A DNA stretch of 63,096 nt, filler included, from Candidatus Woesearchaeota archaeon (GCA_047603125.1; 9 parts of 9 records of this genome joined end to end with filler, not necessarily neighbours in it), one strand, 5' to 3'. Counted from the first letter of the whole stretch, positions 57,001 to 60,000 are shown. A program made the numbers.

Positions 57001-60000
57001 ACTAATTATTTTCTTACACAAGCCATTGTTAGCGCACCTTCTGGAACACAGGAATTTAATGCACAAATTGCAACACTAACCTGGGTCAGTGTTGGAGTCA
57101 TTGCTGTTCCAGCAACAATAGTAATGATGTTTATTTTTTACTCACTCATTTCTTTTATTGAAAAACATACAAATAAAGATTTTGAATCATTGCTTAAAAA
57201 ACAATGAGGGGAACGATACTATCTGTAAACCACACTGCAAGTAATGCAACAAAAATAAAACGGATTGTTCGAGGCAAAAACATAATAAGCCAAATTTCTT
57301 TATGTGATAAGTGGTAAATACCACCAAGATAAGGAATGTATGGAACAGGACTCAATGAGCCTATAAAAAGTGCCCATTTGCCATAATGTTGATTCTCCAT
57401 AAATTTTTTATACTTTTTTTTGCCAAGCATAAATTTAACACCTTTTGAGCCAAATTTTCTTCCTATATACACACAAAAATATCCGGAAAGATAGCTTCCC
57501 AATAATACTAAGATAAGAATAATGTAAATAGAATGCTCACCATTAACAATCCCTAATATGAGCGGTACATCTGGCCCAACGGGTTGTAGGAGTGTGTCAA
57601 GAACAAAAGAGCCTATGAAAATACCAACTAGCCCATACTCTGATGCAAGAAACTCTGAAAACTCTTGAATGTAGACGGTGAGAAAAAAACCAAGAACAAA
57701 CATCAACACAATAAAAATAATAAATCCAAATCCGACTTTTTCGAGTATTTTTGACTTCACAAGAGTATTTATGTGTCTTCTTTTAAAAACTTATATGAAA
57801 ACGAGGCTTCATCTAAAAATAAGAAAAAAGAGCACTTTGTAGTAAAATCCGAAAAGGCGTAGCCGAATTTTCGCATAATACTCAAAGCGGGACTCTTGAG
57901 CAAAATCTGCGTGCTCTTTTTTGAAAAATAACAAAAGTTCGCTGCTCGAAGCTATCCCGCCCTAAAGGGAAGGGGTATTACGCTTCTCACCTAATCGCGA
58001 ACTTTTGAATTGAGAGTTTGCGGACTGAAGTCCAGGGTATTGTACCCGCGAAACTCTCAATAATAATTAGATGGAATTAGTACTATCTAGCCCACATAAG
58101 ACATAGATTTTTTTTCTTTTTCAGAAAGTGATTTTTGAGAGTTTTCCATGAGCATTTTTAGCTTTTTCTCAAAAACGACTGCTTGCTCTTCAAGTGGGTG
58201 TGGATCAACTTGTAATCCTAAATTAGCATCTAATACTTGTATAACAGCCGCAGCTGCATTACTATCTGGTAATTGTGAATGGGTGGTCGCAAAGTACGCA
58301 GTAATATTAAGATCCTTTGCTTTTGTCATAAGTGCTCCACTAACACCCATAACAATTCCTTCCTCAAGTGGTTTTGCTTGTGTGATGCTTCCCTCTTGAT
58401 GTGTTGTATAATAATAGATTTTTGGTTCTGTTGCCTGTGCATCAATGACTCCTTCTAAACAAATCACTTGCCACGCATCTAGTTGTTTTGCCAGTTCAAT
58501 GAGAATATTTGCAATATCCCACTCAAGTCCATCAAGTTTTGCAATAACATGAACGATGACTAAATTATGTTTTTTATTATAATAAATTCCAATTGGATCA
58601 ATAATTTTTCCTTTGTGAATTGCAATCATCGGTTGTGCTTTTTCAAATACCACGCGACCGATTTTTACAGTCTCTAAATGTTCGAGTAAGAATTCAGTTG
58701 TGATTGTTCCAATTAAACCAAGTGTAGGAAAGCCCCCGACAATATTTGGTTTTTCAGGGTACTGCTCTAAATGTATATGCATGTCTGCTTTTTATGAATG
58801 ACCATATTTAAATGTTTGTGTAATCATATGATGATTCAAACGAGAAGCTTTATAAATACGTGGTAGCCTTCCAAAAATATGCCTCAGTAGCTCAGTGGTA
58901 GAGCACCTGACTTGTAATCAGGAGGTCGAGGGTTCAAGTCCCTCTTGAGGCTTGGTTTTTTTCTCTATGTATTATTGTAATGTACATTAACAAAATCATC
59001 TAGTCGCCCATTACAGGGTAGTCTACATGTATTGCACTCACCCATAATTTTTTGAACCGCAAGTTGACGAGTAGCTAATTGTAAGTAATGTTGTCTTTCT
59101 TGTTCATTGAGTCGCAATAATGGGTGTAAACTATTTTGCACAGTTCCAATAATGTACATTCTTCCAACACCAAGTGAGTTTCTAAATGTGCGTTGATTCT
59201 CTTCCCAGAAAGTCCCTGTGATTGGTTGACCTGCTTCATGTAGTCTTGCTCTATCTCGAAGGCCAATTCGCAATGCATAAATATTCATTCCTTGATGGAT
59301 TCTATCACCGTCTTGTTCACAAAGTGTTTGTAAATTAGGAGCCCACTTGTCTGTAAGCAAGTCCCTTGGTGTTACTGGACTAAAATCATCTTGTGGTTGT
59401 CCGATGCTGTATGCAAAATTAGGGGCTGCAAGAATATTGGCATAGTGGCGCAATGCAGCCATTTGTGGTGTATGTGCTGTATTCATAGACGTAATTTTTA
59501 TCTATTTGTATTTATAAACTCAATGGGTTTTCTTTGATATAAATATACCAAAGAAGAAATAAGAAATTTTATAAATAACCCACCAGCCATGCTCTATGTC
59601 GCCTCAGTAGCTCAGCGGTAGAGCGGCTGCCTAGTAAGCAGCAGGTCGGGGGTTCAATTCCCTCCTGAGGCTTTTTTCTGGTTTATTTCGCAGAGTAGTT
59701 TTCTGTAACCATAATTTAGTACGTAAAAAGTTAGGTTTTTACCATTCTTAGATTTTGAAAGATATTTTTCCCTTGTAATTTCCAAGTATGTATTNNNNNN
59801 NNNNNNNNNNNNNNNNNNNNNNNNNNNNNNNNNNNNNNTTAATTAATTAANNNNNNNNNNNNNNNNNNNNNNNNNNNNNNNNNNNNNNNNNNNNAAGAAG
59901 AGAGAATCTTCTGCTCTGCATCGCTTATTGGAGCACCAAACAACGGCTTTGATTTCTTCCATTTTTCTAATAAATCTTGTAAAGAGGTTTTGGAATACGC

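What a model noticed while it worked through the whole genome (the two positions that open the first line are those of the whole stretch)
59601..59672. tRNA-Thr with an A34 anticodon (AGU) in place of the archaeal G34 tRNA
The genome encodes a well-formed 72-nt tRNA-Thr with anticodon AGT beside tRNA-Thr(TGT) and (CGT), and no tRNA-Thr(GGT) is found. I read it as the tRNA that decodes ACU/ACC in this archaeon, either with unmodified A34 or, more boldly, after deamination to inosine by an enzyme that is not a recognisable TadA/ADAT. Archaea are held to use G34 and never A34 in four-codon boxes, so this would be the first archaeal lineage with an A34 (possibly I34) decoding strategy.
Evidence so far: ARAGORN and Rfam both call it (71 bits; rna.tsv, calls 3, 12, 13); the cloverleaf has a fully paired acceptor and anticodon stem. 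BLAST of the tRNA against the genome finds no further Thr tRNA; ARAGORN lists Thr CGT, TGT and AGT only. ACT 4226 and ACC 1554 codons in whole genes need a reader. Among the best 29 tRNA-Thr loci of 200 other Woesearchaeales genomes, 3 (three different families) also carry AGT and 1 carries GGT; in those three genomes a second search found TGT or CGT Thr tRNAs but no GGT, and in the GGT genome no AGT. The only deaminase-fold protein in the genome is g00640, 45% identical to animal dCMP deaminase with a second, motif-less copy of the domain. A review states that A3 [...]
(Added by a program. Inside this text positions count along the whole contig: they may not be those of the stretch shown here. 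"Call 12" and the like, gene names such as g00115 and contig names such as C1 are that model's own, and its searches are not shown. The text may have been shortened before it was handed on; [...] marks where a part breaks off. The agent that wrote the report below was given it as the finding of a first reader that could run no searches.)

Follow-up and report, generated by a model that had tools for sequence, protein, structure and literature searches.

The report
Archaeal threonine tRNA with wobble adenosine
A small uncultured archaeon and many of its relatives carry a threonine tRNA whose anticodon starts with A instead of the usual G; it has replaced the G version in several genera, and codon use points to an unmodified A, a trick already reported for other amino acids in related tiny archaea.

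Summary
The tRNA-Thr(AGU) gene is real. It is a conserved family: 31 of 278 genomes of this order, 42 genomes in 19 families overall. 28 of the 42 lack tRNA-Thr(GGU) and 14 keep it, against GGU in 45 of 50 non-carriers. Four genera have AGU in 22 of 23 genomes and GGU in none, one a single-contig genome. In ribosomal-protein genes ACU rises where AGU is present and ACC falls only where GGU is lost; no other box shifts. True TadA occurs in 1 of 43 carriers, on a bacterial-looking contig. Best reading: unmodified A34, strong on ACU, weak on ACC, born from a UGU/CGU-type gene rather than from GGU. Limits: this genome's own codon use is atypical, its assembly misses tRNAs, and no RNA data exist. 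It is not the first archaeal A34: Leu(AAG) and Pro(AGG) were reported in ARMAN archaea in 2011, and this scan noted Ala, Val and Pro A34 tRNAs on other DNA. New: the threonine case, A34 and G34 side by side, and the codon evidence.

The parts
59601..59672 (+). tRNA-Thr(AGU) gene, 72 nt, no intron, no encoded CCA; G1-C72, C2-G71, U73, G30-C40, C31-G39, C32, A38
   Evidence: identical in contigs of 3 public runs
59633..59635 (+). anticodon AGT (A34 G35 U36)
   Evidence: invariant in the 36-sequence family alignment
59568..59575 (+). TATA-box-like element at the spacing seen before most tRNA genes of this genome (inferred promoter)
   Evidence: such a box before 28 of 36 tRNA genes, in 10% of random windows
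59672..59677 (+). T-tract right after the gene (inferred terminator)
   Evidence: sequence
58881..58952 (+). tRNA-Thr(UGU), 86% identical paralogue on the same contig; likely co-reader of ACC
58965..59486 (-). 173-aa ORF between the two Thr tRNA genes; no family over cut-off; no link to the tRNA shown
59718..59794 (.). 77-nt end of a repeated element at which the contig stops; the same end closes contigs C20, C27 and C33
   Evidence: 97% identity; summed contig depth 65-250 in public runs

Best explanation
A working tRNA-Thr whose A34 stays unmodified. Shown: intact gene, family-wide compensatory stem changes, fixed replacement of GGU in four genera, coexistence with GGU in a third of carriers, codon shifts confined to the Thr box. 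Inferred: it is transcribed from its own TATA promoter, charged by ThrRS (G35, U36, C2-G71, U73 kept), gets t6A37 (Kae1 present) and pairs A34:U with ACU. Where GGU is lost, ACC is read less well, by A34 wobble helped by C32-A38 and/or by tRNA-Thr(UGU), and highly expressed genes avoid ACC. Inferred history: the gene arose from a UGU/CGU-type paralogue, not by G34A in the GGU gene, sat beside GGU, and lineages then lost one or the other.
For: Replacement: AGU 22 of 23 and GGU 0 of 23 in genera g33, g88, g262, g14; sister genera g241 (1 of 1), g260 (2 of 2) and g135 (7 of 9) have GGU. Single-contig G025 has UGU, CGU, AGU and no GGU. Selection: 96.8% of stem cells paired, 128 two-sided changes, 0 of 500 shuffles as high; 11 of 47 AGU sequences carry canonical introns. 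Codons: ACU log-odds against other boxes +0.14 (AGU only, n=26), +0.32 (both, n=9), -0.31 (GGU only, n=24); ACC -0.70, +0.15, -0.02. Only Thr of 16 boxes differs; tree-corrected effect -1.16 +/- 0.24, and 10 of 10 clade contrasts agree. No enzyme: TadA over cut-off in 1 of 69 genomes; ADAR/ADAT1 domain in 0 of 5; no other A34 tRNA in 201 genomes, intron-less short-arm tRNAs only. Origin: G30-C40 in 46 of 47 AGU, 8 of 8 UGU, 8 of 10 CGU, 5 of 42 GGU; C32 in 42 of 47 AGU, 0 of 42 GGU. Precedent: unmodified A34 Thr tRNA of Mycoplasma capricolum (PMC3711424, PMC11066159, passages); E. coli thrT-AGT stays unmodified and rescues the deletion (bioRxiv 10.64898/2026.05.15.725136 section 12).
Against: This genome does not show the family pattern. 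Its ACC:ACU contrast (+0.59) is the highest of the 26 AGU-only genomes; it avoids ACU (-1.27) more than ACC (-0.43) and leans on ACA. Nine of the 26 AGU-only genomes lie within the GGU range, and G025 shows no shift. A U-over-C preference is also seen with I34 in E. coli Arg codons (recalled, not tested), so codon use alone does not exclude inosine. Modification state, charging and expression were not observed. The assembly lacks at least one essential tRNA. The single-origin history rests on stem signature and gene order, not on a resolved tRNA tree.
Confidence: 0.75

Rival explanations
1. In this genome AGU is a fourth, accessory Thr tRNA, and a GGU gene exists but is not assembled or binned. 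A34 would then serve ACU only.
For: 14 of 42 carriers have both, 11 of them within 2 kb. The contig breaks in a repeat 45 nt after the gene. The elongator Met tRNA is also missing. The own ACC:ACU contrast looks like that of GGU genomes.
Against: No GGU in the 3.1 kb upstream, where 7 of the 11 adjacent GGU genes lie, nor among any Thr half-genes of the assembly. Own ACC share is below that of genomes with both (-0.43 against +0.15). The other carrier in the family, G394, also lacks GGU.
Confidence: 0.13
2. A34 is deaminated to inosine (or otherwise modified) by an enzyme unlike TadA/ADAT, giving a eukaryote-like IGU reader of ACU, ACC and ACA.
For: GGU is dispensable in whole genera, and ACC codons remain in use (64 at conserved Thr columns). 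One carrier, G006, has a true TadA gene (153 bits). Several carriers hold unassigned CDA-fold proteins.
Against: ACC is avoided exactly where GGU is lost. G006's TadA is on a 4.7-kb contig among bacterial-type genes and is not found in its three congeners. The other deaminases score 41-83 bits against a cut-off of 150, like one from a non-carrier (81 bits). Single-contig G025 has only a dCMP deaminase and 3-contig G220 no match. No spread of A34 to other boxes was found.
Confidence: 0.07
3. A non-working or mobile-element copy (pseudogene, integration scar, viral tRNA) or a base-call error, with UGU reading the whole box.
For: A repeat sits just downstream. Thr-AGT tRNAs with a similar loop occur on 11 viral contigs. 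The Ala box has only a UGC tRNA in this genome and in the 4 of 5 near-closed genomes with a match, so single-tRNA reading is possible in this order.
Against: Same base in 3 runs; own promoter and T-tract; covariation and introns; fixation in genera; Thr-specific codon shifts.
Confidence: 0.04

Closest known systems
[quoted passage not shown] 2011, PMC3239211; passage read, supplement not available)
   Same: Small DPANN archaea; A34 gene in a four-codon box with the G34 gene missing; also Ile(UAU) with no TiaS, as here.
   Different: Other amino acids and lineage; AGT/AGU has 0 hits in the main text; no coexistence with G34 and no codon evidence in the passage seen.
tRNA-Thr(AGU) with unmodified A34 of Mycoplasma capricolum/mycoides; Thr-AGT of Leuconostocaceae and other Firmicutes (PMC3711424, PMC11066159, PMC8007984, bioRxiv 10.64898/2026.05.15.725136)
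   Same: Same anticodon and box, small AT-rich genomes, paired with a UGU tRNA, replaces GGU.
   Different: Bacterial; read there as a G34A change. Here the body matches UGU/CGU, CGU is kept, an Elp3 gene is present, and a third of carriers keep GGU.
Eukaryotic tRNA-Thr(IGU) made by ADAT2/ADAT3; bacterial tRNA-Arg(ICG) made by TadA
   Same: Gene encodes A34; G34 isoacceptor absent in most carriers.
   Different: No TadA/ADAT tracks the gene; limited to one box; C-ending codon is avoided after G34 loss.

Membership tests
tRNA (RF00005), Thr isotype | Full cloverleaf above the gathering score | tested here: met
   71 bits against 29; fold; family covariation
tRNA (RF00005), Thr isotype | ThrRS identity set G35, U36, C2-G71, G1-C72 (set recalled from the literature) | tested here: met
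   All invariant in 36 of 36 sequences
tRNA (RF00005), Thr isotype | ACU and ACC still mean threonine | tested here: met
   In AGU-only genomes Thr is by far the commonest consensus residue at ACT codons (347, next 9) and ACC codons (64, next 3) in conserved columns
tRNA (RF00005), Thr isotype | Expressed, matured and charged in vivo | not testable with these tools
   No RNA data; promoter-like box and T-tract only
A34-for-G34 replacement in a four-codon box (ARMAN, Mollicutes, Lactobacillales) | A34 gene present and G34 gene absent in the lineage | tested here: met
   22 of 23 against 0 of 23 in four genera, with single-contig G025
A34-for-G34 replacement in a four-codon box (ARMAN, Mollicutes, Lactobacillales) | G34 gene absent in this genome | tested here: inconclusive
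   Not found, but 70 contigs, a break next to the gene and a missing elongator Met tRNA
A34-for-G34 replacement in a four-codon box (ARMAN, Mollicutes, Lactobacillales) | A34 and G34 mutually exclusive; A34 arises by G34A | tested here: not met
   Both in 14 of 42 carriers; positions 30-40 and 32 match UGU/CGU, not GGU
A34-for-G34 replacement in a four-codon box (ARMAN, Mollicutes, Lactobacillales) | A34 unmodified in the mature tRNA | not testable with these tools
   Indirect only: codon shifts, no enzyme
I34 systems (TadA, ADAT2/3) | TadA/ADAT deaminase in genomes with the A34 gene | tested here: not met
   Own protein 36.7 bits against 150, best solved match human dCMP deaminase at E 3e-35; 1 of 43 carriers over cut-off
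I34 systems (TadA, ADAT2/3) | C-ending codon read well without a G34 tRNA | tested here: not met
   ACC depleted in AGU-only genomes only; indirect, and not seen clearly in this genome

The most novel reading that the evidence does not exclude
These archaea modify A34 of tRNA-Thr(AGU) to inosine, or to another base, with an enzyme outside the TadA/ADAT families: the first wobble-inosine system in Archaea, caught while A34 and G34 genes still coexist.
Probability: 0.07. Interest if true: 0.85.

Novelty: new variant of a known kind. Interest (0 to 1): 0.5.

Why it matters
Recent papers still say archaea have no A-starting anticodons and that A34 and G34 isoacceptors exclude each other (PMC8007984, PMC11066159; 3 cases among 10,517 archaeal tRNAs in bioRxiv 10.64898/2026.05.15.725136). 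Here about one genome in nine of a large archaeal order breaks the first rule, and a third of those break the second. The three states (GGU only, both, AGU only) recur across a tree and leave separate marks on ACU and ACC use. That gives a natural experiment on what unmodified A34 can read, and on the step that must precede an inosine system. In practice, intron-bearing copies are mis-called as Ser(AGA) by ARAGORN, so surveys undercount them.

Tried and rejected
First survey pattern needed an intact anticodon arm and a TTC T-loop; it matched only 129 of 401 genomes and was replaced by an intron-tolerant 5'-half pattern. Two of its AGT matches (G217, G391) were not Thr tRNAs. One search had a spacing error and found nothing; redone. 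No RNA holder was listed for the stretch. Laid contigs did not bridge the repeat at the contig end. Two metagenome scans for the same species or close relatives gave 0 hits and 1 unrelated tRNA array. Low-threshold ARAGORN gave three long-intron 'ggt' calls in the own genome, none backed by Rfam or by the Thr half-gene patterns. The tandem deaminase as an ADAT2/3-like fusion was rejected: dCMP-deaminase match, MazG-like neighbour, and dCMP deaminases in non-carriers too. An Asgard link was rejected: the Promethearchaeota-titled case is 1 of 41 relatives. Codon reassignment was rejected. All 22 candidate non-Thr A34 matches were intron-exon junctions or not tRNAs. Parsimony on the tree (15 changes of AGU presence) was not used to date the origin because the sample was enriched for carriers.

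Full report
Observation. Window 59601-59672 (+) is a 72-nt tRNA with anticodon AGT at 59633-59635. ARAGORN calls it, Rfam scores it at 71 bits over the whole model, and the cloverleaf is the minimum-energy fold. Contigs from 3 of 4 laid runs, in 2 studies, cover it without a differing letter; one may be the source sample. A TATA-like box lies 25 nt upstream, as before 28 of 36 tRNA genes of the genome and in 10% of random windows, and a T-tract follows. The genome (1.12 Mb, 70 contigs) has Thr UGU, CGU and AGU, and no GGU by ARAGORN, Rfam or half-gene patterns. The assembly does miss tRNAs: only an initiator-type Met-CAT is present. The contig ends 122 nt after the gene, inside a repeat whose end also closes three other contigs.

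Distribution. An intron-tolerant pattern found AGU in 32 of 401 genomes of the phylum that are at least 90% complete: 31 of 278 in this order and 1 of 123 in other orders, by my count of the rows; pattern sensitivity outside the order was not controlled. Pooling searches gives 42 distinct carriers in 19 families. A scan of named genomes returned 79 loci, 38 of them archaeal-titled with a Thr(AGT) call; it may be capped and misses intron-bearing copies. Outside the phylum the gene is rare: 2 of 51 around an Aenigmatarchaeota-titled genome and 1 of 41 around a Promethearchaeota-titled one. No claim here rests on matches in genomes flagged unpublished; a few of them stand in the denominators.

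Does it replace GGU? Mostly. Of the 42 carriers, 28 show no GGU and 14 have it, 11 of these within 2 kb of AGU. Among 50 non-carriers GGU was seen in 45 and UGU in 44; this comes from the 56 of 131 genomes whose matches one search listed, 16 of them one family. In 36 carriers picked through, GGU was found in 9 and UGU in 31, so assembly gaps do not explain the deficit. Four genera are fixed: g33 6 of 6, g88 9 of 10, g262 3 of 3, g14 4 of 4 with AGU, and none of the 23 with GGU. Their sister genera have GGU: g241 1 of 1, g260 2 of 2, g135 7 of 9. G025 is one contig of 774 kb; its 39 Rfam matches include Thr UGU, CGU and AGU and no GGU. In the own family, G394 has AGU without GGU, and G243 and G295 the reverse.

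Is it under selection? In 36 intron-less copies 96.8% of stem cells pair, with 128 two-sided changes; 0 of 500 shuffles reach this, though relatedness inflates that control. Eleven of 47 copies carry introns at the canonical place, and ARAGORN mis-calls some as Ser(AGA). The anticodon arm points to the origin: G30-C40 in 46 of 47 AGU, 8 of 8 UGU and 8 of 10 CGU but 5 of 42 GGU; C32 in 42 of 47 AGU and 0 of 42 GGU. So the gene is not a GGU gene with G34A. It sits downstream of Leu(UAA) in 16 of 48 loci, as GGU does in 5 of 35, and usually beside GGU when both exist. I infer an old AGU-GGU pair with later loss of one or the other. Transfer or repeated birth from CGU/UGU is not excluded, and similar tRNAs occur on viral contigs.

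What does it read? I fetched 20 kb around ribosomal protein L5 from 60 genomes plus the own; G269 and G353 were dropped for too few conserved genes, leaving 26 AGU-only, 24 GGU-only and 9 with both. The ACC:ACU log-odds, relative to five other four-codon boxes, has medians -0.83, +0.27 and -0.12 (p = 1.3e-6, kin not independent). None of 15 other boxes differs (p 0.11 or more). On a tree of 19 concatenated proteins the effect is -1.16 +/- 0.24 (p = 2e-5; -1.05, p = 0.008 under full Brownian covariance), and 10 of 10 hand-picked clade contrasts are negative, three only slightly. Split by codon, ACU is up wherever AGU is present (+0.14 and +0.32 against -0.31), and ACC is down only where GGU is lost (-0.70 against +0.15 and -0.02). 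ACT and ACC sit at conserved Thr columns, so the code is unchanged. This is what an unmodified A34 predicts: good on U, weak on C. Against it: 9 of the 26 AGU-only genomes lie within the GGU range, G025 shows no shift, and the own genome is the top outlier (+0.59), avoiding ACU more than ACC and using ACA at 31 of 39 conserved Thr sites. E. coli also prefers CGU over CGC with I34 (recalled), so codons alone are not proof.

Enzyme. The own genome's only CDA-fold protein is a 346-aa tandem dCMP deaminase: best solved match 2w4l at E 3e-35, TadA model 36.7 bits against a cut-off of 150, with a MazG-like neighbour by my reading of its sequence. Across 69 genomes, 43 of them carriers, one TadA passes the cut-off. 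It is in G006, on a 4.7-kb contig with thymidine kinase, ArsR, Cof-type and NuoE-like genes, and is not found in three congeners; I read it as a binning contaminant, not proven. G025 has only a dCMP deaminase and G220 no match. The ADAR/ADAT1 domain was found in 0 of 5. No other A34 tRNA turned up in 201 genomes, a test limited to intron-less short-arm tRNAs. The own genome has Elp3 and Kae1, and Ile(UAU) with no TiaS match. The Ala box has only UGC here and in the 4 of 5 near-closed genomes with a match, so U34 tRNAs may share ACC.

Mechanism. Shown: intact gene, purifying selection, replacement in four genera, Thr-only codon shifts, no tracking deaminase. Inferred: transcription, charging, plain A34, strong ACU and weak ACC reading. 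C32 may help wobble, as it does for Mycoplasma tRNA-Gly (PMC10853795, passage). Odds: unmodified A34 standing in for GGU 0.75; GGU unassembled in this genome 0.13; inosine or another modification 0.07; non-working 0.04.

Prior work. Fujishima et al. 2011 (PMC3239211, passages) report Leu(AAG) and Pro(AGG) in place of G34 genes in ARMAN-4/-5, so this is not the first archaeal A34. The lead came from earlier notes of this scan. AGT and AGU have 0 hits in that main text; its supplement could not be read and may bear on novelty. Reviews state that archaea lack ANN anticodons (PMC8007984, PMC11066159, PMC8879553; passages). A 2026 preprint counts 3 ANN among 10,517 archaeal tRNAs without naming them in the text, and shows that E. 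coli thrT-AGT is unmodified and functional (10.64898/2026.05.15.725136, passages and sections 12 and 14). Mycoplasma's unmodified Thr(AGU) is described in PMC3711424 and PMC11066159 (passages); the first says all four codons with ACA weak, the second ACU, ACC and ACG. PMC4033280 gave nothing relevant (passages). Ten searches of the open library showed no report of an archaeal Thr(AGU); most hits were seen as listings only, and subscription papers are not covered.

Verdict. Real, conserved and probably functional; a new variant of a known kind. New, as far as these searches reach: the threonine case in archaea at order scale, A34 and G34 genes side by side, origin from a non-G34 paralogue, and codon evidence for plain A34. 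Interest 0.5; the inosine reading has probability 0.07 and would deserve 0.85.

Noticed in passing
G000:C39:32618-32725: Intron-containing tRNA-Ile(UAU) and no TiaS match in the genome; the same pairing is described for ARMAN archaea in PMC3239211.
   Followed up: partly
G000:C7:10069-10143; G025, G085, G220, G022: The Ala box has only a UGC tRNA here and in the 4 of 5 near-closed genomes with a match, although Elp3 is present here; suggests one U34 tRNA reads all four Ala codons.
   Followed up: partly
window 57790-58070: A dispersed non-coding repeat with parts in more than 30 contigs of the genome; looks like a miniature IS200/IS605-type element (label recalled, not tested).
   Followed up: no
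window 59718-59794: End of a repeated element that breaks four contigs on the same side (C20, C27, C33, C56) and lies on about 1-kb high-depth contigs in public runs.
   Followed up: partly
window 58965-59486 (-): 173-aa ORF between the two Thr tRNA genes, ending in a C-x2-C-x3-C motif, with no Pfam or NCBIfam match over cut-off.
   Followed up: partly
G000:C35 (L122:814-1854, -): dCMP deaminase with a second copy of the domain that lacks the zinc motif, between a phosphoglycerate mutase and a MazG-like gene.
   Followed up: partly
L267 (G025:C1:196843-197029): An odd adjacent tRNA pair: a short-arm tRNA with the Ser anticodon GCT and a long-arm tRNA with the Thr anticodon TGT, in addition to the normal genes.
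   Followed up: no
L137 (G409), L119 (G436), L136 (G418): Thr(AGT) outside the phylum: in a TGT/TGT array of a Nitrosopumilaceae-titled genome that keeps GGT; once among 41 Promethearchaeota relatives; twice among 51 Aenigmatarchaeota relatives.
   Followed up: partly
L355 (G006:C46): A true TadA gene on a 4.7-kb contig with bacterial-type neighbours in an AGU-only genome; probably a binning contaminant.
   Followed up: partly
L044, L112, L050, L062, L069, L086, L092, L114: Thr(AGT) tRNAs in Candidatus Portiera and several Clostridia-titled genomes, and in phage and giant-virus tRNA arrays.
   Followed up: no
window 6854-6983 (-) and 27753-27868 (-): Intron-containing tRNA-Tyr(GTA) and a 5S rRNA gene elsewhere in the window.
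   Followed up: no
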